From UHGV virus genome UHGV-0222911: a DNA stretch of 64,000 nucleotides; one strand, 5' to 3'. The notes beneath the pieces were generated by a model that was given only the letters and a program-made list of their open reading frames with translations, ran no database searches and was not told the origin of the DNA. The translations under genes were made by a program, and so were the position numbers. The first letter of the stretch is position 1; each line of letters begins with the position of its first letter. Below, piece after piece: positions 11,625 through 63,985 of the stretch. The DNA comes from a virus.

Positions 11625-14171
11625 ATGGCAGATTACAAGTTGAGTCAATTAAACTCAATCGACACAATTCGTTCAGAAGACCTATTGCACATCAGAGTTA
11701 AGAAAAGACCTGAAATGTTGGGTGACGAAGACCGTAGAATGACCTATCAAGACTTCTTAGCTTCCTTCAAACTAGAAAGGTTTGTTCAGATTGCTGGGAG
11801 TACTATGGTTGGGGACTTAGGTATTGTCAAGTTACTTTACGGTGGTAAGGCAGTATTTGACCCAACAGGCTCTTCTGAGATTACTATTGGGGATATTTTA
11901 AAGACTTTTAAAATCAACTCAAATGGGCTTAAACTCACTATTGCAGATGCCACAAGGTCGGCAACTGTTTATCATACTTTGAATAAACCAAGCCCTAATG
12001 AACTTGGTATGAGAACTAATGAAGAGAATGATGCAAGATATGCAAGGCTTGCTGTTACAAACACATTCTCTGGAACTCAGAACATTCAAGGTGATGCTAA
12101 CTTACTTCGCCTTAGAAACCGAAATGCAAACAATGCACAATACATTGAAGGTGTAAACCAAGATGGTTCAGCTAGATGGTGGGTTGGTATTGGTAGCAAT
12201 GGTTCTGACGAAGTAAAACTGTACAATAACAAATACAACTCAGTCTTGACTGTTGCAAGTAATATCTCTGTTAATAAGTCTTTAGCAATCACTGGACAAG
12301 TTCAACCTTCAGATTTCTCTAACTTAGATGCTAGATATTTTACTCAGACAGTTGCTAATCAGAGATTTGCACAGTTAGCTGGCAATAATACTTTTACAGG
12401 TGCTAACACTTTCACTAACCTTGTTGCTAAGAAGAATGCTAATGCTATTACTTTGCAGAATACTGATGCAAGTACAGCACTTTACATTCTCGGTAAGAAG
12501 TCTGATGGAACAAATAAATGGTATGTTGGTACAGATTCTGATGAGACACGTCTAAACATTTACAACTACCTTACAGGTTCACAGGTTTCACTAGGTACTA
12601 CTATTGGTATCAATAAAACTGTGCAAATCACTGGACAAGTTCAACCTTCAGATTGGGCTAACATTGACTCTAGATATATTCCGGTAGCAACATTAAGTAC
12701 GATTGCAAGAACTAATGCAAGGAATACTTTTAATGGTGTACAGACAGTTGTTACGGATAATGAAGGTCTGATTGTTAAAAACTCTACTCAGAATAGACCA
12801 TTATATATTCGTGGTGTGGACACTACTAATGTATCAAGATGGTGGATTGGTGTTGGTGGTGCTGATACGAATGATGTTACCCTAAATAACAGTTATTCTG
12901 GAACCCAATTGGTTCTCGGGAATACAACATCATACATTAACAAAACATTGACTATTGCTGGACAAGTTCAACCTTCAGATTTTTCTAACTTAGATGCTAG
13001 ATACTTTACGCAAAGTGCTAGTGATAGCAGATACCTAAGAATCAGAAGCACTAGCTTCAATGTGGGAAACACTGAGAAGTGGGCTAAAATTGCCACTGTT
13101 GTGATGCCACAATCAGCATCCACTGCTGTTATTGAGGTATTTGGTGGGTCAGGTTATAATATTAATACACCACAACAAGCAGGTAAATGTGAAATTGTTC
13201 TGCGAACTTCAAATAACAATCCAAAGGGCTTAAATGTTGTTGCTTGGAGAACATCAGATAACACCATTGTCAGGGATATTGGTTATGTGAATACTTCTGG
13301 AGACACCTATGATATTTACTATCTTGCTGGTACGTTTCAAAACAGTACAACGACAAGGGTTCAGTCTTCTAGTAATGCAAGTGTACAGTTGTTTGAAGTC
13401 CCACAGACATTTGATGATGCTCCACAAGATATTGTGAAGGGTACAATTGCAAAATACTACACAAGTTTGCAAAAACCAACCCCTTCAGATATTGGTGCAT
13501 ACACTAAAGCAGAGACTGACCAGAAAATTGCAGAAGCAATTAGTGACTCTACAGACCTGAATAAAATCTACCCAGTAGGTATCGTGACATGGTTTAATAG
13601 TAATGTTAACCCTAATACAGCACTTCCTGGTCTAACTTGGACGTACCTGAATAATGGTGTTGGCAGAACTATTAGAATTGCAGCAGCAAATGGTTCAGAT
13701 GTTGCTACAACTGGTGGTTCAGACTCTGTAACGTTATCTGTTGGTAACTTACCTTCACACACGCATAGTTTCTCTGCTACTACTTCATCATTTGATTATG
13801 GCACTAAGACTTCTAGTACAACTGGTAACCATAACCATAACAGAGGGACTATGGAGATTACTGGTACAGTAGGTTACTTTAGAAGTGACTCTAGCAGCTT
13901 CTACACAGCAAGTGGTGCATTTACACTTGGTAGCTCAACTGCTTCTAAGGGTTTTACTGGCTCTAACTTCACTTATGGTATCCCTGCTAACTTTAATGCG
14001 TCAAGAACTTGGTCTGGTGTAACGAATACAACAGGTAACCACAGCCACACTGTTGGTATTGGTGCTCACAGCCACACAGTTAGCGGTAACACAGGTGGTA
14101 CTGGTTCTGGTTCAGCATTTAGTGTTACTAACCAGTTCTACAAGTTAATGGCTTGGGTAAGAACTGCTTAA
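11625..14171 (+). CDS. long tail fibre protein with three tandem internal repeats and His-box tip
   Basis: 848 aa; three ~110 aa tandem repeats each ending ITGQVQPSD(F/W)xNxDxRY (near-identical DNA at 12291-12347, 12629-12685, 12957-13013); C-terminus has LPSHTHSF, FDYGTKT, TGNHNH, HSHTVGIGAHSHTV like the preceding gene. Confidence 0.65.
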   Translation: MADYKLSQLNSIDTIRSEDLLHIRVKKRPEMLGDEDRRMTYQDFLASFKLERFVQIAGSTMVGDLGIVKLLYGGKAVFDPTGSSEITIGDILKTFKINSNGLKLTIADATRSATVYHTLNKPSPNELGMRTNEENDARYARLAVTNTFSGTQNIQGDANLLRLRNRNANNAQYIEGVNQDGSARWWVGIGSNGSDEVKLYNNKYNSVLTVASNISVNKSLAITGQVQPSDFSNLDARYFTQTVANQRFAQLAGNNTFTGANTFTNLVAKKNANAITLQNTDASTALYILGKKSDGTNKWYVGTDSDETRLNIYNYLTGSQVSLGTTIGINKTVQITGQVQPSDWANIDSRYIPVATLSTIARTNARNTFNGVQTVVTDNEGLIVKNSTQNRPLYIRGVDTTNVSRWWIGVGGADTNDVTLNNSYSGTQLVLGNTTSYINKTLTIAGQVQPSDFSNLDARYFTQSASDSRYLRIRSTSFNVGNTEKWAKIATVVMPQSASTAVIEVFGGSGYNINTPQQAGKCEIVLRTSNNNPKGLNVVAWRTSDNTIVRDIGYVNTSGDTYDIYYLAGTFQNSTTTRVQSSSNASVQLFEVPQTFDDAPQDIVKGTIAKYYTSLQKPTPSDIGAYTKAETDQKIAEAISDSTDLNKIYPVGIVTWFNSNVNPNTALPGLTWTYLNNGVGRTIRIAAANGSDVATTGGSDSVTLSVGNLPSHTHSFSATTSSFDYGTKTSSTTGNHNHNRGTMEITGTVGYFRSDSSSFYTASGAFTLGSSTASKGFTGSNFTYGIPANFNASRTWSGVTNTTGNHSHTVGIGAHSHTVSGNTGGTGSGSAFSVTNQFYKLMAWVRTA

Positions 14172-14250
14172 TCACTTGTTGACTGATTGTTAAGATGGTG
14201 TTAATATTCTTTATGGGTATTCTCACCATCTTGGCTGATGAGGTGATTAA

Positions 14251-14448
14251 ATGCCTACAATCCTAGCAATTCTTCTAAAAAATCTAGGTAACTTCTTCTG
14301 GAAACTCATTTTATCCCTTCTAAGTGAATACATGATTGAGAAAGTGTTCTTTAAGCTTGCAAGATATCTTGCGAGTAAAACAGACACACCTATTGATGAT
14401 GAGTTCGTAGATAACTTAGAAAAAGCTTTTAAGGGGGAGAATAAATGA
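14251..14448 (+). CDS. small membrane protein (holin-like candidate)
   Basis: 65 aa, hydrophobic N-terminal segment (ILAILLKNLGNFFWKLILSLL), charged C-terminus. Confidence 0.3.
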   Translation: MPTILAILLKNLGNFFWKLILSLLSEYMIEKVFFKLARYLASKTDTPIDDEFVDNLEKAFKGENK

Positions 14449-14816
14449 AGTGGCTAGAGGAAGCTTTTAAAAATAATATTGGTACAATTGTAGTTGGTAT
14501 TTTTAGTGTTATTGGGATGTATACCACCATGCAAGTCTCGGATGGTAAGCAAGAAGTGTCTGTCACAACAAAGTTACAGCAGCTAGATAATTATAGCAAG
14601 TCTAATTACTCAGCTATTCGTGATTTACAGTCTGACATGAGACTGATTCAGCTAGGGATGGAGAACCAGAAAGTTCAGTTAGAGAATGTTAAGGGTGAGA
14701 ACGCAAAACTTACTAAAACTCTGGATAAATTCTCTGACAGTGTGAACAATCTGGCTCAATCAGTATCAGCCTTGCAAGCTATTACTGAAAAGAACACAAA
14801 GAATACTGAAAAATAA
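14445..14816 (+). CDS. membrane-anchored coiled-coil protein
   Basis: 123 aa, one TM segment (IGTIVVGIFSVIGMY) then coiled-coil-like region; overlapping start with previous ORF. Confidence 0.3.
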   Translation: MKWLEEAFKNNIGTIVVGIFSVIGMYTTMQVSDGKQEVSVTTKLQQLDNYSKSNYSAIRDLQSDMRLIQLGMENQKVQLENVKGENAKLTKTLDKFSDSVNNLAQSVSALQAITEKNTKNTEK

Positions 14817-14823
14817 AATTTAA

Positions 14824-14853
14824 GGCTCCTTTTTACGGGAGCCTTTTTGTTTT
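14824..14853. terminator. bidirectional terminator between convergent genes
   Basis: GGCTCC ttttta cGGGAGCC hairpin with T-runs on both sides. Confidence 0.55.
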
Positions 14854-15751
14854 ACTTGCCTACTGACAGAGGTGCTTCAATCTTTCCTGCATGTTGGTAG
14901 TTATTAATCCCACCAATAAAATCACTTGCTGTAAGATGTTTTAAGTCACTTAAAGTATTAAGTGGTAGACCAATCTCAAAAGTTGGTGCATGGAACTCTT
15001 CGTTGTTCATCAGTTCATAAACCTGCTTCATATGGTTCTGATAAATCTGAGTATCTCCAAAGACACCTATCAAGTACCGTGGAGTGTATCCAGTCATCTT
15101 ACAAAGAACTTCCAGAATAAAACCGTAAGATGCAATATTAAACGGAAGTCCTAAAAAGGTGTCTACTGAACGCTGATACCATTGTAAATCAACTTCACCC
15201 TCATTAGTAATATAAATCTGAAACAGAACATGACAAGGTGCTAAAGCCATTGAGTTTGCTGCAATATCTGCTGCATTCCAAGCATTAACAAGCATGTAAC
15301 GGTCTGTGATATCACCCTTCATCTTTGTTACTAATGTATCTAGTTGGTCTACAACACAACCGTTATGACCTTCAAAGTTTCTCCACTGAACCCCATAGAT
15401 TCTTCCACCTGCATCCTCTAACCAATCTTGTTCAGAAGAATAATTAGAGCTTAACCAGCGTTTAAAATCATCTGACCAGATAGTCCAGCGTTCCCCATCA
15501 TTTTCACCCCAAGTGCGGTAACGGAGTTCACCCAGCTTATTCTCACCGTTCAGGAACCATAAAGCTTCCCCAATAACTTGTCGTGTAAACACCTGTTTAG
15601 AAGTTAAGAGTGGGAAACCAGTTCGCATATCAAAACGAAACTGAGGTGGAGCAAATGCAGAGATAACATCTCCAGTTCGTGTAGTACGCAGTTCACCAAC
15701 TGATAAAACATGGTTCAGAATATTTTTGTAACTTGTATCTGCTTGTGACAT
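14852..15751 (-). CDS. thyA: thymidylate synthase (ThyA type)
   Basis: 299 aa; classical ThyA motifs (EALWFLNGEN, DLQWYQRSVD, LGLPFNIASYG). Confidence 0.9.
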   Translation of the reverse strand: MSQADTSYKNILNHVLSVGELRTTRTGDVISAFAPPQFRFDMRTGFPLLTSKQVFTRQVIGEALWFLNGENKLGELRYRTWGENDGERWTIWSDDFKRWLSSNYSSEQDWLEDAGGRIYGVQWRNFEGHNGCVVDQLDTLVTKMKGDITDRYMLVNAWNAADIAANSMALAPCHVLFQIYITNEGEVDLQWYQRSVDTFLGLPFNIASYGFILEVLCKMTGYTPRYLIGVFGDTQIYQNHMKQVYELMNNEEFHAPTFEIGLPLNTLSDLKHLTASDFIGGINNYQHAGKIEAPLSVGK

Positions 15752-15752
15752 A

Positions 15753-16298
15753 TCAAAAGTGTCCTTTTACTTGTGGAACATAAATTTCAAAGGTTGCTTT
15801 ACCATCCTCTGATGGTTTTGACTGTACCTTTGTAAATACACGGTTATCATACAGCTTCTCAAAGAAGTTTTCAAAAGGTAAATACACAGTGGCCTCTTCA
15901 GTAACTTTATGGAAAACTGTATGGAAAACTACACCAGCATATGGTAAAGCATTGACAAGGACACCTGCACCACCAATTACAAAGACATCTTCATCAATAG
16001 AGCTATCAAGATACTTCAAAAATGCTCCAAAGGATTCTTTGCTGGCCTTAGCATACATTACCTCATCTTTGCCAAAATCTATGCCTAAGTATGGTACAGA
16101 ATTTGTTAAGATGAGGTTTGCACGTTCTGGTAAAGGTTTACTACCAAGAGTCTTGAAAGTCTCATTCCCCATTACTACTAAGTTGTTTTTAGTGAGCCTC
16201 TTAAACTCTTGCATATCTTGTTTATGTCGAGGCCACGGCATACCAGTTGGAGTACCAAACTCCCCATTTTCACCACTTGCAAAGATTAATTTAATCAT
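15753..16298 (-). CDS. folA: dihydrofolate reductase
   Basis: 181 aa; DHFR N-terminal signature (IFASGENGEFG...MPWPRHKQD...VVMGNETFKTLG); adjacent to thyA. Confidence 0.85.
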   Translation of the reverse strand: MIKLIFASGENGEFGTPTGMPWPRHKQDMQEFKRLTKNNLVVMGNETFKTLGSKPLPERANLILTNSVPYLGIDFGKDEVMYAKASKESFGAFLKYLDSSIDEDVFVIGGAGVLVNALPYAGVVFHTVFHKVTEEATVYLPFENFFEKLYDNRVFTKVQSKPSEDGKATFEIYVPQVKGHF

Positions 16299-16555
16299 TT
16301 TGTAAATCCTTTCTTAATGAACCAGTTGATAACATTCTTCACCGCTTTATTGCTATGATAGATTAAGTGTGGTGCAGGTTGGTATGAACCATAAGCCCAG
16401 AAAGCAATAATTTCACTACACCCTGTACACCTTGTACTCTCTTCAGCAATATGACCGTTGACTATTTCACTTACCTCACCTTGTAAGTCTGTGCATCCAC
16501 AATGTGGACAACGGATAGGTGCTCCGTCAGACTCATAGCAGTGTTCAATTTTCAT
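16295..16555 (-). CDS. small zinc-ribbon protein
   Basis: 86 aa with CPHCGC...CTGC cysteine pairs. Confidence 0.35.
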   Translation of the reverse strand: MKIEHCYESDGAPIRCPHCGCTDLQGEVSEIVNGHIAEESTRCTGCSEIIAFWAYGSYQPAPHLIYHSNKAVKNVINWFIKKGFTK

Positions 16556-17071
16556 TTATTTAACCTCAAAAACTGGTTCAAGAACCAATATAAAGTCTAC
16601 ACAGTCATCTTCTTCATCCAGAATACCATCAAAGTTCTTAGGAACGAAGTCGAAGAGACTCATCACAAAGCAGTCAGAAGTAACCCTGATAGTTCCTCCG
16701 ATGTTCTCTACAGTTAACACTGTACGACTTTCTTTTACCTCTCGCAAAAGATTACTCACAAAGTCATCTAAGAAGTACTTCATCAGTGACTTAAAACCTT
16801 TAGGGTAATCTGTACCAGAGTATGTTTCAATCTGAGGTACAAGCTTAACATTTATACTAGTCTTTGTTAAGAATGTGCTAGAGAACATACTATCAGGTAA
16901 CTTACAAACAGTCTTTCCAGTGCCTTCATGTTCAATCTCAACAAAACCAGCTTCATCGCCACATGTAACTATTTTAAAAGATGCTTCATTATCACCCTGT
17001 GAAGCCATAAACTTTTTAAGCATCTCTTTAAGGAAATCTGCATGAGCATCTTGTAAGTAGATATCAATCAT
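16556..17071 (-). CDS. hypothetical protein
   Basis: 171 aa ORF, coupled to neighbours. Confidence 0.4.
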   Translation of the reverse strand: MIDIYLQDAHADFLKEMLKKFMASQGDNEASFKIVTCGDEAGFVEIEHEGTGKTVCKLPDSMFSSTFLTKTSINVKLVPQIETYSGTDYPKGFKSLMKYFLDDFVSNLLREVKESRTVLTVENIGGTIRVTSDCFVMSLFDFVPKNFDGILDEEDDCVDFILVLEPVFEVK

Positions 17072-17084
17072 AGTTAATCACCTA

Positions 17085-17444
17085 TTATGGGAACAGACAC
17101 TTGATGTCATCATTTTTGAAAACGAAGCTTGTGTAGTTGTGACCATCAACATCCAGCCAAACAGCCTGAACATCTACACCATCAAGATTGTGGTAAAGCT
17201 CTTTGATGAAGTGGTCTTTCACAATCTGGCTGCTAGTTGTTTCCAGCTTAATGTTTGAGATTGCTGAACCTACAGCCATATAACCCATGACACGTTTCTT
17301 CTCAGTATGCTTAATCTTACCATCTTTGTAAGCCATAATGAGATTGGAAAGAATCTTCACACCATAATACTTTTCAAGGTGAGTTGGTACACCATAAAAG
17401 CCTAATGCGAAGTTTTCAGAGTGGATAATATTTTCACGTTTCAT
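17085..17444 (-). CDS. hypothetical protein
   Basis: 119 aa ORF. Confidence 0.4.
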   Translation of the reverse strand: MKRENIIHSENFALGFYGVPTHLEKYYGVKILSNLIMAYKDGKIKHTEKKRVMGYMAVGSAISNIKLETTSSQIVKDHFIKELYHNLDGVDVQAVWLDVDGHNYTSFVFKNDDIKCLFP

Positions 17445-17445
17445 A

Positions 17446-17775
17446 TTAATCTGCCAGCCTTAAATTAAAATTAACACCAAATTTTTCGCATACTTCCAAC
17501 ATATACTCAAGGGAGACATTACCAGTGAGGTGGATTATGTTGGATACACGAGCCTGAGAGATACCACAAATTTTAGCAACTTGCTCTTGAGAAAGACCTC
17601 TGGATTTAATCTCTCTCTTAAAACGATGTGCAACGAAATCTCTCATTTCGTCTACATCCATTGGACAAATATAACTCTCCATTTCAGCCTCTCTGTCAGC
17701 CTCCCAATCATCTTGTGGAGCATAAGGGTCAAAAACCTCATTCATCTTTCTTCTTCCGTTTGCGTGAAGTGTCAA
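17446..17775 (-). CDS. helix-turn-helix DNA-binding protein candidate
   Basis: 109 aa; HTH-like segment GLSQEQVAKICGISQARVSNIIH. Confidence 0.4.
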   Translation of the reverse strand: MTLHANGRRKMNEVFDPYAPQDDWEADREAEMESYICPMDVDEMRDFVAHRFKREIKSRGLSQEQVAKICGISQARVSNIIHLTGNVSLEYMLEVCEKFGVNFNLRLAD

Positions 17776-17950
17776 TCAATGAATCTATGTTTGTAGCCCT
17801 AACCTTTTCACGTTCATCGTTAAGATAATCATCAAGAACCTTTTCAATCTGTGAATCATCTTGACAGATAACTGTAAAGACTGTAAAGCCGTCTGTATCG
17901 TCAATTATCTTACCATAACCGCTTCTGGGATGTAACTTTTTAAGAGCCAT
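17738..17950 (-). CDS. hypothetical protein
   Basis: 70 aa ORF overlapping start of next gene. Confidence 0.3.
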   Translation of the reverse strand: MALKKLHPRSGYGKIIDDTDGFTVFTVICQDDSQIEKVLDDYLNDEREKVRATNIDSLIDTSRKRKKKDE

Positions 17951-17951
17951 A

Positions 17952-18335
17952 TCAAATACCTGTGCAGCTTCTGTTTTCTAAGAAATACTCAACACCATAC
18001 ATAGCTTTTTGCATCAAATCTTCTTTAAACTGGATACGGTGGTTGAGCATCGCCTGTACATCAATATCGTCATGGTGTTTCTCTTTAATGTTTGCAGATT
18101 GCAGGAAATACTCTGCAAGAACACGATACTGGTAGTCAGTCACCTTATCAGTCATCTCTGTCAAAGATTCTTCAGATATTGGTTTAAGTAGCTCACCATT
18201 AGCTAGAGCAACACCTTTTACAATCTGGCAAGTGTCTTCTGGAACACCTGATAAGTCCACATTTGGAAGTTCTGTTGCATTGACTGGTAAATTCATTGCC
18301 ATAACCATTGCAGCAGCTAATAAAATCTTTTTCAT
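17952..18335 (-). CDS. secreted/periplasmic protein (signal peptide)
   Basis: 127 aa; N-terminal signal peptide MKKILLAAAMVMAMNLPVNA. Confidence 0.45.
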   Translation of the reverse strand: MKKILLAAAMVMAMNLPVNATELPNVDLSGVPEDTCQIVKGVALANGELLKPISEESLTEMTDKVTDYQYRVLAEYFLQSANIKEKHHDDIDVQAMLNHRIQFKEDLMQKAMYGVEYFLENRSCTGI

Positions 18336-18379
18336 AATGACCTCAAAGTTATATTAAATTTTGTATTACATTGAGTATA

Positions 18380-18408
18380 AAAATAAGCTATAACACCTGA
18401 CTTGTCAA
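18380..18408 (-). promoter_or_regulatory. sigma70-like promoter candidate for gene 17952..18335
   Basis: On minus strand TTGACA - 17 nt - TATTTT, AT-rich upstream. Confidence 0.35.
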
Positions 18409-18463
18409 CAGACTTTATAGCTTATTTGGCAGATTTTTTATAAGGCTACTGCCATCCTTCCAT

Positions 18464-18498
18464 ACCAAACCCGACCTCACCTCACCCCACCTCACCTT
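18464..18498. repeat. phased pentamer array 1: (ACCNN)x7 on plus strand
   Basis: accaa acccg acctc acctc acccc acctc acctt, strict 5-nt phase. Confidence 0.8.
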
Positions 18499-18519
18499 AT
18501 TAAAAGACCCTCTTAAAGA

Positions 18520-18548
18520 CCTTTTAAAAAGGAGCCTCCGAAGAGGCT
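18520..18548 (-). terminator. rho-independent terminator for gene 18560..19000
   Basis: Minus strand AGCCTC UUCG GAGGCU hairpin followed by CCTTTTT. Confidence 0.6.
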
Positions 18549-18559
18549 ACCTCGTCAAC

Positions 18560-19000
18560 TTAGAAAGGTTTTCTGCGTTGCTTGTTAATGTTAGCTTTCA
18601 TAGCAGCTAAATGGTTTTGCTGTTCAATCAGTCGTGAACGTTCTTGATGACTAAGTGCCATAGTGTTCACATTCTCAATTGCTTGAGTGGCTTGCTTTAA
18701 AGCTCGACCAATCTTACCAGACATTTTACGTTTTGCAATAGTTGCTTGATGCTTAGGTTCAACCACACGATAACCAACACCCATTGAAGCAACCAGATAA
18801 ATCTTCTCTTCTTTAAGAAGCTTTTCAATAAACTTCTCAAGTCGGTTTAGACGTGTAAGTGCATAAGCCTTCATTTCATCTTCGTACTTAACAATGTCAC
18901 CTTGATAAGTTGGCTTCACAATACCTAAGAAGGTGTCCATCTCAGAATGTGATACAGTGTCACCGTAACTAAACTTTGCTGCTAATGCTTTTGTATTCAT
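18560..19000 (-). CDS. hypothetical protein
   Basis: 146 aa ORF. Confidence 0.45.
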   Translation of the reverse strand: MNTKALAAKFSYGDTVSHSEMDTFLGIVKPTYQGDIVKYEDEMKAYALTRLNRLEKFIEKLLKEEKIYLVASMGVGYRVVEPKHQATIAKRKMSGKIGRALKQATQAIENVNTMALSHQERSRLIEQQNHLAAMKANINKQRRKPF

Positions 19001-19002
19001 AA

Positions 19003-19608
<606 letters not shown>

Positions 19609-60305: not shown

Positions 60306-60434
60306 TCAATAACTTACAAAAAACTTTTAAAAAGATGTTGACAATCCCTCTTGACATTGGTAACTTTGTTCGAGGGGGTTTATCTAAAAGGGATTAACTT
60401 AAAAGATTCTTTATAGATAAACTTAAAAAATTGC

Positions 60435-60463
60435 TTGCAATCAGATATCAAAACAAGTAAATT
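60435..60463 (+). promoter_or_regulatory. sigma70-like early promoter (module A5)
   Basis: TTGCAA - 17 nt - TAAATT; variant hairpin GGGAGG caataa CCTCCC at 60475-60492; two extra TTGACA at ~60345-60366. Confidence 0.5.
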
Positions 60464-60527
60464 ACTCATCAACGGGGAGGCAATAACCTCCCTACTAAGT
60501 AAAATCCTTAAACTAGGAGATTCAAAA

Positions 60528-61058
60528 ATGAACAAGTTCAAAGCTATCAACTATATTCGTTCAAATAATGTAATGTCTAAGCCTGTTAAAGATACCTATG
60601 AATTTCGTTGTAATGGGGTACACTTTGCAACCATTACCAAATCAGAAAACGGAGCTTATTACGTTCATCGTCGTAATGTTGCAACCGTTGTAGTCTCTCA
60701 CTTTATGCAAGCTGTTGCGGAACTTCTCCCGCTGTTTTTAGGTCTTTACTTAGATGAGTGTAAAAACGTTCACAGCCACGTTAAAAACCTTTTAAACAGT
60801 TATAAAATGGCTTATGAACGTTCTATTCATAATTTGAACAAGTTCTATAAAGCCCCTGAAAATACTGTGTCAATAGCTTATGACGTAAGCGGTGAAATGG
60901 TCAATCTCTCCAATGTAGAACAAATTAACCTTTATGATTTACGTCCTAACGGTTACGCTAAAACTCTCGGTGAAGGTTTAACGTTTAATATCAAGAACTT
61001 AGAAAAAACTTTAAAAGATATTGAAAAAGATATTGACGAGACAACCAAAAATCTGTAA
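60528..61058 (+). CDS. early-region protein (unknown)
   Basis: 176 aa from ATG placed by conserved leader (longest ORF starts 60435 within promoter). Confidence 0.5.
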   Translation: MNKFKAINYIRSNNVMSKPVKDTYEFRCNGVHFATITKSENGAYYVHRRNVATVVVSHFMQAVAELLPLFLGLYLDECKNVHSHVKNLLNSYKMAYERSIHNLNKFYKAPENTVSIAYDVSGEMVNLSNVEQINLYDLRPNGYAKTLGEGLTFNIKNLEKTLKDIEKDIDETTKNL

Positions 61059-61061
61059 ATT
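61033..61061 (+). promoter_or_regulatory. sigma70-like early promoter (module A6)
   Basis: TTGACG - 17 nt - TAAATT, inside 3' end of preceding CDS; hairpin 61072-61092. Confidence 0.5.
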
Positions 61062-61123
61062 GTCAATCAACGGGGAGGGAATGGCCTTCCCCACTAAGTA
61101 AAGTCCTAAACTGGAGATTCAAA

Positions 61124-61387
61124 ATGGAACACGTCGAACTGACCACACTTTTACAAATTGCAACCGACAAAGAGGATGTAGCACTATTCCACCGTATCGA
61201 AAGTGATTTGTTCAATGGTGAAATCATCAAAGAGTCTTACGAGGTTGTCGGATTCAAAGACGGTAAAGCATTCGGATTCTTTGACCTCGACAAAGGTAAC
61301 GCTATTACAAAGTACGATGTATTATCTTGTGAGATTCTGGCAAAATACAACGAAAAAAGACTTGCAACATACGCCAACATGCAGTAA
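61124..61387 (+). CDS. early-region small protein (unknown)
   Basis: 87 aa. Confidence 0.5.
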   Translation: MEHVELTTLLQIATDKEDVALFHRIESDLFNGEIIKESYEVVGFKDGKAFGFFDLDKGNAITKYDVLSCEILAKYNEKRLATYANMQ

Positions 61388-61391
61388 ATTA
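61362..61391 (+). promoter_or_regulatory. sigma70-like early promoter (module A7)
   Basis: TTGCAA - 18 nt - TAAATT; variant hairpin GGGAGG taatga CCTCCC at 61401-61418. Confidence 0.5.
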
Positions 61392-61452
61392 CTAATCAAC
61401 GGGAGGTAATGACCTCCCACTAAATAAAAACCTTAAACTAGGAGACTCTAAA

Positions 61453-61701
61453 ATGGCTACTATCCGCGCAACTGTTAATGCTTATGGCTGCTACACTCTG
61501 GATGTTAAATTTGATATTGGTGGAACTGATGAATGCTTTTCATTAGTGAAGACAGTTATCAAGCAAGTTATCCCAGATTATAACCCTACTGATGACTTCT
61601 GGAAAGACGCTGTAAAAGAGGCATTAAACGACGAGCATCACTATCATTACTGGGGTGATTTGATTGTCTCCCTGTACTACAGCAAACAAGGGTACAACTA
61701 A
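61453..61701 (+). CDS. early-region small protein (unknown)
   Basis: 82 aa; followed by two hairpins and a long T-run. Confidence 0.5.
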   Translation: MATIRATVNAYGCYTLDVKFDIGGTDECFSLVKTVIKQVIPDYNPTDDFWKDAVKEALNDEHHYHYWGDLIVSLYYSKQGYN

Positions 61702-61735: not shown

Positions 61736-61769
61736 GAAAAGCTCCTTCTCATAGGGGCTTTTTTTTTTA
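61736..61769 (+). terminator. rho-independent terminator closing the early cluster
   Basis: AAAAGCTCC ttctcata GGGGCTTTT with 10-nt T-run. Confidence 0.6.
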
Positions 61770-61779
61770 CGTCTATGCA

Positions 61780-63420
61780 ATAGCCCCTATACAAGCCTTT
61801 CCCTTTCCTTTCCAGAATCTATCCCGTACCTTAAAAGCAATAACTCTATAGCTTACTCTATAGCCCCTTATCAAATCAACTTAAATAAAAGCCAATAACC
61901 CCAGAAAGGGGATGGCCTACTAATTGGTATTGTTACCAATCCCCTAAACGCTCTATAAAGCTCTATAACAGCCTTATCAACCTAACTTAAGGGATTGCAT
62001 TAACCCACTCTAAAAAGCCCTTTATAAAGCTTCCTATAGCCTTAAAAGAATCTTATAAGGGTGTAAGCTTTATCATCTCGTTAGTTATCTTGTGAATAAC
62101 TCAATAGCCCTTGATAGTCTCTAAAAAGTATGTTATAGGGGCTGTTAAGTTACTTTGAAGTTACGTAAAAGAGGCTATAAAGTTACGTAAACGCTAGCCC
62201 CCTTAACATTTTCTTAACAATTTCTTAACAATCCCTACATAGTTATGCTTTTAAGGCACTTGTTAGAGACTTGTTAGCCCCTTGTTAAATCTCTGTTAAG
62301 ACCACGTAAAAGCCTTGTAAGAGTCTTTGGCATAGCCTTTAAAGCTCCTATAAAGCCCTATAAAGAGGTGTCTGTATAGTTGGGGTGTAGTTACTAGGAA
62401 GAGACTTAAAAGAGCTTATAAGGGGCTATAGAGAGCTTTTAAGAGGTATGTTTAGAGAGTCACTAAAAGGGAAGGGAACAATAAGAAAAGAGTAGTGACC
62501 ATGTTAATAGCTTGTTAAAAAGATTAAACACTTGTTAGGAACTTGTTAATTATCTAATTGGTATTGTTACCAATCCCTAACAAAATAACTCTTTAAAATT
62601 AACTTGTTAGCTCTTGTTAGTCATCTGTTAAGATTCTGTAAAGTCTATGTATCAACTGTTAAGAAACTGTTACATCCTTGTTAGTTCTGTTAAGAATCTG
62701 TTAAGACCTTTGAAGAGTTGTTAAGAGGATGTAGTAGCTGTTAAGAGATTGTTAAGGATATTTTAAAATTTTGCAAAGTACTTGTAAGGGAGCTGTTAAG
62801 GGCTACCAAGCAGATATACATCTTCTACAGATATTTTTCAGTTCCTTCAAAGACCCTAAAAAATGACTTGACAGTCCTATTTTATAAAAATTTTAAAATT
62901 CTGAATAATTACCTAGACAGTCTTTTAAAAATACAGGCATAAACAGGCTTATAAGATACCTTGTTAGTACCGTGTTAGACCTTGTGAGATAAGGTCTGTA
63001 AAGATATTCCTGTTAAGTTTGTTAAAACAGTCTATATAGAGGCTTAGTATTTCCTAGTGAACACCTATAGAGAGTAACATAGCTAACCTAATGGGTTACT
63101 GTTAAGTAACACAGGTAACCTAGAGATTAAGAGGTGTATAGGAGCTTCTAAGAGGGTGTAGAGAGATGGTTAAGGTGATTGTATAGGTTGTTAAGAAGGC
63201 TTGTTAGAAGAGTGTTTAGAAGGGCTATACAGAGGGGCTATTAAGACCACTAGATAGATACTAAGATACTATATAGTACTATATAACTATATAGAGAGTA
63301 AGATTAAGAAGGTTGTTAAGAAGGATAGATATTTTATTCACATATGATGGTGACCCAGAGGTTGGGACAACCGATAAAATTTTATAAAAATTAAAAAGCC
63401 CCCAATTAAGGAGGCTCTTA
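61780..63420. repeat. ORF-free repeat-dense region (YTGTTAR and CTATAAAG short-repeat families, palindromes)
   Basis: No ORF of 60 aa or more on either strand; about 30 copies of CTGTTAAG/TTGTTAG-like words; CTATAAAG/CTATAG words at 61.84-62.45 kb; palindrome TTGGTATTGTTACCAA at ~61924 and ~62557. Confidence 0.7.
63393..63416 (-). terminator. terminator for minus-strand gene 63428..63985
   Basis: Minus strand AGCCTCC ttaatt GGGGGCT followed by TTTTT. Confidence 0.45.
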
Positions 63421-63427
63421 AGATATT

Positions 63428-63985
63428 TTAAATCAGTGTTTCCAGAACTGTCTTTAGTGATGACTTGGTTGTCTGATAAAAATGAGTAAATCCATTGTTA
63501 TTATCGAATACCTGCATCATGATATCATCTCCCTTGATTGGGTACACTCGGATATCATAGTGAAAACCATTAAAGACACAAGAACCACTACAGAATGCTC
63601 TAAAGTCATCCACTGAGATATACTCTTCATGACCTGTGATTTTTATACAAACACCTTTACTCGGTCTCTTAGGGTTGATATCTTCCATCACAGACATACT
63701 CTGTCCACCAAGAGATACCATAGTGACCACTTTACGGTTCTTCTGTTTAAAGTACATCTTAACTTTCTGCAAAGTGTCTTCATAGAACGGATACGACTTC
63801 TCTACAAAGATTCCTTCAAGTGGCTCTTTACCATTTTGAACCTCTCTGTAACCCCGTACTGCAAAGATAATTTGTTCTAACCTATTAAGGCTTTCTTCGT
63901 AGAGTGCTCCACGAATATCATTCCAGTCAAGGACTAGGTAGTTACCTTCAACTTCTTTTAAGTTATCTTTTTCCATAGCTATCAC
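63428..63985 (-). CDS. hypothetical protein
   Basis: 185 aa ORF near window end. Confidence 0.4.
   Translation of the reverse strand: MIAMEKDNLKEVEGNYLVLDWNDIRGALYEESLNRLEQIIFAVRGYREVQNGKEPLEGIFVEKSYPFYEDTLQKVKMYFKQKNRKVVTMVSLGGQSMSVMEDINPKRPSKGVCIKITGHEEYISVDDFRAFCSGSCVFNGFHYDIRVYPIKGDDIMMQVFDNNNGFTHFYQTTKSSLKTVLETLI

What the first reader, a model, noticed from the sequence alone, without database searches (positions are those of the whole stretch)
61780..63420. 1.6-kb non-coding region packed with two short-repeat families and a duplicated palindrome
No ORF of 60 aa or more on either strand, bounded by terminators from both sides. Roughly 61.84-62.45 kb is rich in CTATAAAG/CTATAG words; 62.2-63.3 kb contains about 30 copies of YTGTTAR (CTGTTAAG, TTGTTAG), often as tandem pairs such as CTTGTTAGAGACTTGTTAG and TCTGTTAAGAATCTGTTAAG. 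The palindrome CTAATTGGTATTGTTACCAATCCC occurs twice about 640 bp apart, and there are short tandem words (TTACGTAAA x2, TCTTAACAAT x2, ACTATATA x3). Such a region in a virulent phage is a candidate for the physical genome end or terminal repeat, a packaging-recognition region, or a sink of binding sites for a host or phage DNA-binding protein.
Basis: seen in the sequence. Interest (0 to 1): 0.6.

Follow-up and report, generated by a model that had tools for sequence, protein, structure and literature searches.

The report
Phage terminal repeat and packaging junction
This gene-free 1.6-kb stretch is where copies of a Felix O1-type phage genome are joined and cut for packaging. Its central 611 bp is the repeat found at both ends of the virion DNA, already mapped in close relatives, and it contains about twenty evenly phased copies of one short word whose binding protein is unknown.

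Summary
Window 61765-63393 has no ORF of 60 aa or more, and a terminator faces in from each side. It carries 26 same-strand YTGTTAR words against about 1 expected, and two exact copies of a 24-nt hairpin word.

The window is a Felixounavirus (Felix O1-like myovirus). Three GenBank relatives (Ro111lw, SeKF_63, Pr103Blw) carry exact 613/613/581-bp direct terminal repeats. Their first and last bases map to window 62197 and 62807, and the boundary sequences are identical in the window. Two of these repeats were called by PhageTerm. Published Bal31/SpeI data for UAB_Phi87 fit only the SpeI fragment that holds this region.

So the region is the concatemer junction: right-end arm, a 611-bp terminal repeat, then left-end arm. 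The repeat holds 18 of the 26 words. Its 21 TGTTA cores are phased at about 10.25 bp, and the cores are better conserved than the spacers across three genera. I infer a phased protein-binding platform for packaging or end handling. The protein is unidentified.

The duplicated palindrome is not a conserved part. It is a hairpin mini-insertion found at five different sites among relatives.

The element itself is already known and annotated in relatives. The array anatomy appears not to have been described.

The parts
61736..61763 (+). Intrinsic terminator that closes the rightward (+) cluster of small early-type genes
   Evidence: 11-pair stem followed by a T run. The homologous terminator is annotated in phage Michonne.
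61765..62196 (.). Unique arm next to the right physical end of the genome. It is C-rich on the + strand and holds the CTATAAAG / TATAGCCC words. Two AAGTTACGTAAA copies (62157-62192) abut the cut site.
   Evidence: GC skew -0.24; CTATAR 6 (+) and 4 (-). It is the least conserved segment, with 0.80 mean identity to 22 relatives. In phiEa21-4 the equivalent arm uses CTTCTAA words instead.
61920..61943 (+). Hairpin mini-insert, copy 1 (7-bp stem, TTGT loop). Among the genomes compared it is present at this site only in this phage.
   Evidence: Absent from all 23 aligned relatives. The fold gives -4.7 kcal/mol, z = -4.7.
62197..62807 (+). Direct terminal repeat (611 bp). In virion DNA it is present at both ends; in the concatemer or collapsed assembly it is present once. 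The left genome end is predicted at 62197 and the right genome end at 62807.
   Evidence: Exact 613-bp end repeats of Ro111lw and SeKF_63, and the annotated 581-bp DTR of Pr103Blw, map to 62197..62807. PhageTerm results are published. At least six records start or end exactly at the equivalent of 62197, and one at 62806. UAB_Phi87 Bal31/SpeI data fit only this locus.
62202..62232 (-). Three inverted copies of the word (TTAACA) at 11-bp steps, just inside the left boundary. With CTGTTAAGGG at the right boundary they make the repeat's ends an imperfect inverted pair, TAGCCC(CC)TTAACA.
   Evidence: period 11, 2.8 copies., I3 (62200-62231 vs 62771-62802, 72% complementary). Conserved in Mooglevirus and Suspvirus.
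62260..62800 (+). Array of 21 forward TGTTA cores (18 of them full YTGTTAR words) in four clusters: 62260-62300, 62501-62550, 62604-62756 and 62793-62800. All lie on one face of the helix.
   Evidence: Phase test R = 0.81 at 10.25 bp against 0.25 +/- 0.07 for random placement, 0 of 2000. The same holds in Michonne, Sf13, SUSP1, UAB_Phi87 and Ro111lw. Core columns are identical in 4 genomes of 3 genera at 86%, against 63% for other DTR columns.
62554..62577 (+). Hairpin mini-insert, copy 2, inside the terminal repeat
   Evidence: Present at this site in only 3 of 23 aligned relatives. The same element sits at three other sites in other relatives.
62808..62960 (.). A+T-rich, word-free segment directly abutting the right boundary of the repeat. 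It starts with AAGCAGATATACA. It is a candidate cleavage or recognition site, or an unwinding element.
   Evidence: 28% GC, falling to 23% in 62860-62945. It is the most conserved part of the region, 0.96 mean identity. AAGCAGATATACA is kept in four genera, including Erwinia phage phiEa21-4.
62961..63393 (+). Unique arm next to the left physical end. It is G-rich on the + strand and has 7 more YTGTTAR words and ACTATATA(G) x3 (63267-63295).
   Evidence: The word cores here are not better conserved than their surroundings (52% vs 62%).
63089..63120 (+). 32-bp hairpin insertion carrying CTGTTAAG in its loop, flanked by AACCTA
   Evidence: Present in 5 of 23 aligned relatives. The fold gives -5.5 kcal/mol.
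63394..63419 (-). Intrinsic terminator that closes the leftward (-) gene cluster (first gene 63428..63985)
   Evidence: 10-pair stem followed by a T run. A terminator is annotated at the homologous place in KhF2 and Michonne.

Best explanation
The region is the concatemer junction of a Felix O1-like (Felixounavirus) genome.

Shown by homology to mapped relatives: window 62197-62807 is the short, exact, non-permuted direct terminal repeat (DTR). Virion DNA starts at 62197 and, after one genome length, ends at 62807. The 432-bp arm on the left is therefore the subterminal DNA of the right genome end. The 586-bp arm on the right is the subterminal DNA of the left end. Both flanking gene clusters are transcribed towards the junction and stop at terminators.

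Inferred: the repeat is a nucleoprotein platform. Its 21 TGTTA cores sit on one helical face, so a phage protein could coat or wrap it. The most likely candidate is a still unannotated small-terminase-type or end-binding protein. The terminase would then cut at the two boundaries, which carry the same word in inverted orientation, TAGCCC(CC)TTAACA. That arrangement fits nicks on opposite strands about 611 bp apart, followed by strand-displacement synthesis that duplicates the repeat, as proposed for T7 (from my own knowledge of the T7 literature). The same bound array on both virion ends could also help end pairing for concatemer formation.

The duplicated palindrome is not part of this machinery. 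It is a variable hairpin insertion.
For: Identity
- The region matches 256 phage records, almost all Felixounavirus or other Ounavirinae.

Termini
- The Ro111lw and SeKF_63 records have exact 613-bp repeats at both ends, mapping to window 62197..62807.
- The Pr103Blw record annotates a 'short direct terminal repeat region' of 581 bp with the same first and last bases.
- PhageTerm results are published for Ro111lw (613 bp) and Pr103Blw (581 bp).
- H12, NBSal004, ECP2307 and SPJ41 also begin or end exactly at the equivalent of 62197, and EcSzw_1 at 62806.
- For UAB_Phi87, Bal31-sensitive SpeI fragments of 4322 + 2819 bp and a 608-bp DTR were published. Only SpeI fragment 13014-19582 fits: 6568 + 608 = 7176, against 7141 observed. 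That fragment contains the junction.
- The window's boundary sequences are identical to those of the mapped relatives.

Selection on the array
- 18 of the 26 words lie in the DTR.
- The cores are phased at 10.25 bp: R = 0.81, with 0 of 2000 random placements reaching it. Phasing is conserved in three genera.
- Core columns are 86% invariant against 63% for spacers, and only inside the DTR.
- The TGTTAAG array and AAGCAGATATACA persist even in Erwinia phage phiEa21-4.

Analogy tested
- The T7 junction has 13 one-strand CCTAAAG words across the terminal repeat and its flanks.
Against: - No reads or virion DNA of this particular phage were available, so its termini are inferred from relatives that are about 87-93% identical here.
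- The UAB_Phi87 fragment sizes predicted from the mapped boundaries (4431 and 2751 bp) differ by 109 and 68 bp from the published 4322 and 2819 bp.
- No protein that binds TGTTAAG is known. PHROGs gives no small terminase near the large-terminase gene, and it gives 'unknown function' for the genes flanking the junction.
- Nothing here shows that the words, rather than only the boundary sequences, matter for packaging. The equivalent T7 words still have no proven role (my own knowledge).
- The inverted boundary motif is only weakly visible in phiEa21-4.
Confidence: 0.8

Rival explanations
1. Replication origin. The phased TGTTAAG words would be iterons for an initiator, and the adjacent 23-28% GC segment (62808-62960) would be the unwinding element. 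This could coexist with the terminal repeat.
For: - The array is helically phased and one-orientation, as in iteron origins.
- The A+T-rich, extremely conserved segment lies next to it.
- Two relaxed DnaA boxes (TTATTCACA) sit in the arms, out of six in the 64-kb window.
Against: - The terminal-repeat identity already accounts for the location and the boundaries.
- No initiator-like gene is adjacent.
- Transcription converges on the site rather than diverging from it.
- DnaA boxes are under-represented in the window as a whole (6 vs 11.4 expected). The right-hand box is not kept in other genera.
- No replication data exist for this group in the papers searched.
Confidence: 0.12
2. End-protection or end-pairing array, or a protein sink. 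A phage or host DNA-binding protein would coat both genome ends after injection. It would shield them from exonucleases, pair the two repeats for recombination into concatemers, or titrate a host protein, with no direct role in terminase recognition.
For: - The array lies inside the repeat, so it is present on both virion ends.
- Same-face phasing suits a cooperative filament.
- The word is conserved across phages of Escherichia, Salmonella, Citrobacter, Shigella and Erwinia. That would fit either a conserved host factor or a core phage protein.
- The PhageMaP paper notes that Bas63, a Felixounavirus, lacks a RecBCD inhibitor.
Against: - No candidate protein is known.
- I could not match the word to any host-factor consensus I know (IHF, Fis, DnaA, LexA, CRP). 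This rests on my own knowledge and is not a database test.
- It is not exclusive of the packaging role.
Confidence: 0.15
3. Functionless repeat-rich spacer made by slippage and unequal recombination between two transcription units, or a transcribed non-coding RNA locus.
For: - The region is rich in small indels and variable hairpin insertions.
- Word copies in the right distal arm are not better conserved than their surroundings.
Against: - The architecture, the phasing and the boundary sequences are conserved in three genera. The word array and the right-boundary sequence also persist in a fourth genus, where phasing is weaker.
- Core columns in the repeat are selectively conserved.
- Promoter-like sites are not above chance (16 vs 10.4 +/- 3.2).
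- No Rfam family reaches its gathering score; the best hit scores 26 bits against a threshold of 55, E = 0.21.
- Both flanking terminators face inward.
Confidence: 0.03

Closest known systems
Direct terminal repeats of other Felixounaviruses: Pr103Blw MW481326 (581 bp, annotated), Ro111lw MH571750 (613 bp, PhageTerm), UAB_Phi87 (608 bp, Bal31 plus run-off sequencing)
   Same: This is the orthologous sequence, 87-93% identical in the pairwise comparisons. The first and last bases of the repeat are identical, and so are the flanking genes and terminators.
   Different: Length differs by small indels. This phage carries two copies of the 23-bp hairpin mini-insert, one inside the repeat. The papers that report these repeats give only their length. 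In the text I read, they do not give the location or the word array.
Bacteriophage T7 concatemer junction (160-bp terminal repeat flanked by the short-repeat arrays SRR and SRL)
   Same: Both have a short exact non-permuted terminal repeat in a non-coding junction. Both have a one-orientation array of a 7-8-nt word spanning the repeat and its flanks: T7 has 13 CCTAAAG and no inverse copy. The terminases group as 'short DTR' type according to Bardina et al..
   Different: - In T7 most words lie outside the repeat, at 13-bp steps. Here most lie inside it, at about 10.25-bp phase.
- The repeat is four times longer here.
- T7 has strong early promoters reading inward from the left end. Here both neighbouring gene clusters read outward into the junction.
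- The phages are unrelated (a myovirus versus a podovirus).
Terminase small-subunit recognition sites built from repeated boxes (lambda cosB R sites, SPP1 pacL/pacR) - from my own knowledge
   Same: Several short repeated binding boxes lie next to the cleavage site and are thought to wrap an oligomeric DNA-recognition protein.
   Different: Those sites have 2-4 boxes, not about 20. They belong to cos or headful phages. Here no small subunit has been identified.
Boundary inverted repeats of the long terminal repeats of Twort-like/SPO1-like myoviruses - from my own knowledge of the literature, not checked here
   Same: The two edges of the terminal repeat carry the same short sequence in inverted orientation. 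This suggests one nuclease specificity acting on opposite strands.
   Different: Those repeats are several kb long and contain genes. Here the repeat is 0.6 kb and gene-free, and the inverted motif is imperfect (I3: 72% over 32 nt).
Iteron-type replication origins (lambda ori, P1 oriR, iteron plasmids) - from my own knowledge
   Same: Helically phased direct repeats lie next to an A+T-rich segment.
   Different: Iterons are 17-22 bp long and few in number, usually with the initiator gene in cis. Here the word is 7-8 bp, there are about 20 copies, and no initiator is nearby.

Membership tests
Short exact direct terminal repeat (T7-type, non-permuted) junction | The sequence is orthologous to a terminal repeat whose ends were mapped on virion DNA or reads, with both boundaries intact | tested here: met
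   Window 62197 and 62807 coincide with the first and last base of the repeats of Ro111lw, SeKF_63 and Pr103Blw.
Short exact direct terminal repeat (T7-type, non-permuted) junction | Virion DNA of this very phage has fixed ends with the repeat on both | not testable with these tools
   No reads or virion DNA are available. The window holds the repeat once, as expected for a collapsed assembly.
Short exact direct terminal repeat (T7-type, non-permuted) junction | The large terminase groups with short-DTR terminases | not tested
   The terminase gene lies outside the window: no match to the UAB_Phi87 terminase region and no tRNA cluster. Bardina et al. place the Felix O1-group terminases in a DTR cluster.
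Short exact direct terminal repeat (T7-type, non-permuted) junction | The junction is non-coding and carries oriented short-word arrays, as in T7 | tested here: met
   No conserved ORF. 26 (+) vs 3 (-) YTGTTAR words. T7 has 13 CCTAAAG words on one strand.
Iteron-type replication origin | Phased repeated binding sites next to an A+T-rich unwinding element | tested here: inconclusive
   The phasing is met and a 23-28% GC segment adjoins the array. Both are equally explained by a packaging junction.
Iteron-type replication origin | Initiator gene in cis, or host DnaA boxes | tested here: inconclusive
   The neighbouring genes belong to PHROGs of unknown function. Two relaxed DnaA boxes lie in the arms, and the right-hand one is not conserved in other genera.
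Iteron-type replication origin | Replication initiates here | not testable with these tools
   This needs marker-frequency analysis or 2-D gels.
Structured non-coding RNA / transcribed locus | A promoter and a conserved RNA family or structure | tested here: not met
   No Rfam family reaches its gathering score (best hit 26 bits against 55). Promoter-like sites are not above shuffles.

The most novel reading that the evidence does not exclude
The whole terminal repeat of the Ounavirinae is a roughly 20-site, one-face, phased array for a still unidentified small DNA-binding protein: a missing small terminase or an end-binding/end-pairing factor. It would be conserved from Escherichia/Salmonella phages to Erwinia phages. 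Recognition would therefore be spread over 0.4-0.6 kb rather than held in a compact pac/cos site. In addition, the 21-23-bp hairpin that carries the same word in its loop would be a tiny mobile or gene-converting element that targets these sites.
Probability: 0.35. Interest if true: 0.55.

Novelty: already known. Interest (0 to 1): 0.3.

Why it matters
Felix O1-type phages are widely used for Salmonella and E. coli typing, biocontrol and therapy. Many of their GenBank records are opened at arbitrary points, or carry wrong end repeats, as the first UAB_Phi87 record does.

Placing the true ends at window 62197 and 62807 gives the correct physical map. It shows that early genes lie at one end and read outward, and that the lysis/tRNA/terminase side lies at the other end. 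It also defines which DNA must be kept intact when engineering these phages.

The phased TGTTAAG array is a concrete, testable handle on two open points. The first is the identity of the DNA-recognition partner of the terminase in this group. The second is what the short-word arrays at DTR junctions do, a question still unanswered for T7 (my own knowledge).

Tried and rejected
1. I first took the exact 542-bp repeat at the two ends of record JN225449.1 (UAB_Phi87) as the physical DTR. I rejected it for two reasons. That record read as linear gives terminal SpeI fragments of 1134 and 16247 bp, not the published 4322 and 2819 bp. Three other records place the repeat in this region.
2. Rfam at a permissive threshold gave only a sub-threshold Phe-leader hit over the right terminator.
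3. The sigma-70 promoter scan gave 16 sites vs 10.4 +/- 3.2 expected, and none was convincing. TTGACA at 62868 has no acceptable -10 element and is lost in Mooglevirus.
4. There are no tRNAs in the window.
5. PHROGs for the genes flanking the junction, and for the genes upstream of the large terminase in UAB_Phi87, gave only 'unknown function', so there is no small-terminase candidate.
6. The Felix O1 genome paper lists other repeats but not this region.
7. The PhageMaP paper on Bas63 reports no result for this junction, and its supplements are not held.
8. Relaxed DnaA boxes were too few and too poorly conserved to support an origin.
9. I considered a T5-like injection-stop signal. I did not pursue it, because the repeat here is terminal and 0.6 kb long, with no pre-early gene block between it and the end.
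Full report
**1. The observation**

Window 61780-63420 is free of ORFs of 60 aa or more.
- With a 30-aa cut-off, only a 33-aa and a 31-aa ORF lie inside.
- A + strand terminator at 61736-61763 and a - strand terminator at 63419-63394 face inward. The neighbouring genes (61453..61701 on +, 63428..63985 on -) therefore converge on the region.
- YTGTTAR occurs 26 times on the + strand and 3 times on the - strand. The rest of the window predicts 0.9 and 1.0. Dinucleotide shuffles of the region give 1.25 +/- 1.13, with a maximum of 6 in 1000.
- The two main forms are CTTGTTAG (8 copies) and CTGTTAAG (10 copies).
- The CTATAAAG/CTATAG family is enriched against the genome background. Against the region's own composition it is only modest: 16 vs 6.1 +/- 2.8.
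- The 24-mer CTAATTGGTATTGTTACCAATCCC is exact at 61920 and 62554.

**2. What genome this is**

The region matches 256 phage records, at 88-91% identity over the full length among the best-listed hits. Almost all are Felixounavirus (Felix O1-like myoviruses) or other Ounavirinae.
- In 23 further loci from GenBank and IMG/VR the same 1.5-1.7-kb gene-free region lies between the same two genes. Each carries 22-26 forward and 1-5 reverse YTGTTAR words.
- No ORF of 40 aa or more is conserved in it. Only 14% of 354 pairwise indels are multiples of three.
- Rfam finds nothing that reaches a family threshold, and promoter-like sites are not above chance.

**3. A false start**

Bardina et al. 2016 determined the ends of the Felixounavirus UAB_Phi87 by Bal31 digestion and run-off sequencing. 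They reported a 608-bp direct terminal repeat.

The GenBank record JN225449.1 has an exact 542-bp repeat at its two ends, inside the tRNA cluster. I first read this as the physical repeat. That would have placed the termini 14 kb from our region.

It is not the physical repeat.
- Read as linear, that record gives terminal SpeI fragments of 1134 and 16247 bp. The paper saw Bal31-sensitive SpeI fragments of 4322 and 2819 bp.
- The unique genome is 87,061 bp. Adding 608 gives 87,669, which is the size published.
- The only SpeI fragment that can yield the published pair is 13014-19582: 6568 + 608 = 7176, against 4322 + 2819 = 7141. That fragment contains the homologue of our region, at 14.55-16.25 kb.

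**4. The termini**

Several records start inside the region. vB_EcoM_H12 starts at the equivalent of window 62197 and ends at 62196, and REP10 starts at 62217.

A spread sample of 60 of the 255 records that match window 62100-62900 shows more.
- Ro111lw, SeKF_63, NBSal004, ECP2307 and SPJ41 begin or end exactly at the equivalent of 62197.
- EcSzw_1 begins at 62806.
- The segment is found at 290 places in the 255 records, so in up to 35 records it is present twice or split.

Three records define the repeat directly.
- Ro111lw and SeKF_63 each carry an exact 613-bp repeat at both ends. It runs from GCCCCCTTAACATT... to ...CTGTTAAGGGCTACC and maps to window 62197..62807.
- Liao et al. 2019 report a 613-bp repeat for Ro111lw from PhageTerm, that is, from read-start pile-ups.
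- Pr103Blw, with a PhageTerm repeat of 581 bp, is annotated in GenBank with a 'short direct terminal repeat region' at 1-581 and 87841-88421. It has the same first and last bases.

In UAB_Phi87 the same boundaries delimit 614 bp. The SpeI end fragments predicted from them, 4431 and 2751 bp, are within 109 and 68 bp of the published values.

The window has both boundary sequences unchanged. I conclude that window 62197-62807 (611 bp) is the direct terminal repeat and that the whole non-coding region is the concatemer junction. This rests on homology. The termini of this particular phage were not and could not be mapped here.

**5. Anatomy of the junction (window coordinates)**

| Segment | Coordinates | Main features |
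|---|---|---|
| Left arm | 61765-62196 | Subterminal DNA of the right genome end |
| Terminal repeat | 62197-62807 | 611 bp, holds most of the word array |
| Right proximal segment | 62808-62960 | A+T-rich, no words, most conserved |
| Right distal arm | 62961-63393 | Seven more words, ACTATATA(G) x3 |

Left arm:
- It is C-rich on the + strand (GC skew -0.24) and holds most CTATAAAG/TATAGCCC words.
- Two AAGTTACGTAAA copies lie just before the cut site.
- It is the least conserved segment, at 0.80 mean identity.

Terminal repeat:
- It opens with three inverted copies of the word (TTAACA at 11-bp steps, 62202-62232).
- It then carries 21 forward TGTTA cores, 18 of them full YTGTTAR words, in four clusters. 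It closes with CTGTTAAGGG-CTACC.
- Its two edges are thus an imperfect inverted pair: TAGCCCCCTTAACA on the top strand at the left edge and TAGCCCTTAACA on the bottom strand at the right edge (I3). The pair is conserved in Mooglevirus and Suspvirus.

Right proximal segment:
- It has 28% GC, falling to 23% in 62860-62945, and contains no words.
- It is the most conserved part, at 0.96 mean identity.
- It begins with AAGCAGATATACA.

Right distal arm:
- It is G-rich and has seven more words plus ACTATATA(G) x3.

**6. Evidence that the array is functional**

- The TGTTA cores in the repeat are in helical phase. For all pairs up to 120 bp apart the resultant is R = 0.81 at a period of 10.25 bp. Randomly placed sites give 0.25 +/- 0.07, and none of 2000 trials reached the observed value.
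- The same phasing is found in Ro111lw, UAB_Phi87, the Mooglevirus phages Michonne and Sf13, and the Suspvirus phiSUSP1 (R = 0.66-0.81, 0 of 1000 each). It is weaker in the Kolesnikvirus phiEa21-4 (R = 0.55, 19 of 1000).
- In an alignment of four genomes from three genera, core columns inside the repeat are invariant at 86%, against 63% for the other repeat columns. Outside the repeat the cores are no better conserved than their surroundings (35-52% against 62-64%).
- Erwinia phage phiEa21-4 has a 43% GC genome, yet its syntenic region has TGTTAA 17 times (0.67 expected) and the AAGCAGATATACA boundary. Its left arm uses a different word, CTTCTAA.

Selection therefore acts on the words inside the repeat and on the boundaries. 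It is much weaker on the arm copies.

**7. The palindrome**

Both copies lie in segments that are absent from most relatives.
- The element (a 7-bp stem, a TTGT loop that itself contains the word, and a CCC tail; -4.7 kcal/mol) is a presence/absence polymorphism.
- It occupies five different sites of the junction among the relatives: 61920 (this phage only), 62465 (inverted), 62555, 62604 and 62659. Each site is next to or within a TGTTA word, and most have TA at the joints.
- A second hairpin insertion of 32 bp, at 63089-63120, behaves the same way.

These are variable passengers, not conserved parts of the junction.

**8. Mechanism**

Shown by homology: the genome is non-permuted, and its ends fall at 62197 and 62807.

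Inferred: the phased array is a one-face binding platform for a phage protein. The terminase cuts at the two boundary motifs on opposite strands, and the repeat is duplicated by strand displacement, as proposed for T7 (my own knowledge).

No binding protein is identified. PHROGs finds no small terminase next to the large terminase, and gives only 'unknown function' for the neighbouring genes.

Rivals:
- An origin of replication co-located with the repeat. It has a phased array and an A+T-rich block, but no initiator. The two relaxed DnaA boxes are few, and the right-hand one is not conserved in other genera.
- An end-protection or end-pairing array.
- A functionless spacer, which the conservation data disfavour.

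**9. Comparison with the known**

The element is the orthologue of terminal repeats already mapped and annotated in Felixounaviruses, so as a kind of feature it is already known.

The closest well-studied analogue is the T7 concatemer junction. I checked it directly. T7 has a 160-bp repeat and 13 one-strand CCTAAAG words: three in the repeat, eight in the left flank at 13-bp steps, and two in the right flank.

The differences here are these:
- most words lie inside the repeat;
- they follow the helical period;
- the repeat is four times longer;
- transcription runs into the junction from both sides.

The papers I could search give only repeat lengths. They do not describe the location, the array, the phasing, its conservation across four genera, or the hairpin insertions. 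I cannot exclude descriptions in papers outside the library.

**10. Verdict**

The kind of element is already known, and interest is modest. The residual value lies in the phased, conserved word array as a lead to the unknown DNA-recognition protein of this phage group, and in the correct physical map for a much-used phage genus.

Noticed in passing
window 61920-61943 and 62554-62577; relatives L011, L017, L022, L024, L025, L005/L026, L043: The 21-23-bp hairpin TAATTGGTATTGTTACCAATCCC is a presence/absence polymorphism at five different sites of the junction in different Felixounaviruses. One copy is inverted. All copies lie next to TGTTA words, and most have TA at the joints. It looks like a tiny mobile or gene-converting element. 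I found it nowhere else in the window or in the IMG/VR contigs.
   Followed up: partly
window 63089-63120: A 32-bp hairpin insertion carrying CTGTTAAG in its loop, flanked by AACCTA on both sides. It is present in only 5 of 23 aligned relatives.
   Followed up: partly
JN225449.1 / NC_027360.1 (loci L003, L004): The UAB_Phi87 record ends with an exact 542-bp duplication inside the tRNA cluster. This is not the 608-bp physical repeat published for that phage: the SpeI end fragments do not fit. It is probably an assembly overlap, and it can mislead anyone who reads termini from the record.
   Followed up: yes
GU169904.1, 135355-137101 (hit H22): 'Staphylococcus phage SA1' (147 kb) contains this Felixounavirus junction at 90.5% identity. 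Other searches also hit its Felix O1-type genes. The record looks chimeric or contaminated.
   Followed up: no
window 60404-60530, 61020-61124, 61384-61458: The short intergenic stretches between the small + strand genes are repeats of one another: a G+C-rich hairpin (for example AACGGGGAGGGAATGGCCTTCCCCACT) followed by a ribosome-binding site. This recalls the repeated intergenic cassettes of T4-type early regions.
   Followed up: no
L045 (Erwinia phage phiEa21-4), 16472-17912: The syntenic non-coding region keeps the TGTTAAG array and the AAGCAGATATACA boundary. Its other arm uses a different word (CTTCTAA, 9-12 copies). From the conserved boundary motifs I predict a terminal repeat of about 439 bp at roughly 17028-17466.
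   Followed up: partly
window 62091-62099 (-) and 63334-63342 (+): Two relaxed DnaA boxes (TTATTCACA) in inverted orientation, one in each arm of the junction. The whole 64-kb window has only six, against 11.4 expected. The left one lies in a block conserved across genera. The right one is not kept as a box in other genera.
   Followed up: partly
L046/L047 (phage T7 ends): The T7 junction carries 13 CCTAAAG words, all on one strand, with three inside the 160-bp repeat. Related words such as CATAAAG and CTTAAAG also occur, which resemble the ...TAAAG/...TTAAG endings of the words seen here. I make no claim of homology.
   Followed up: partly
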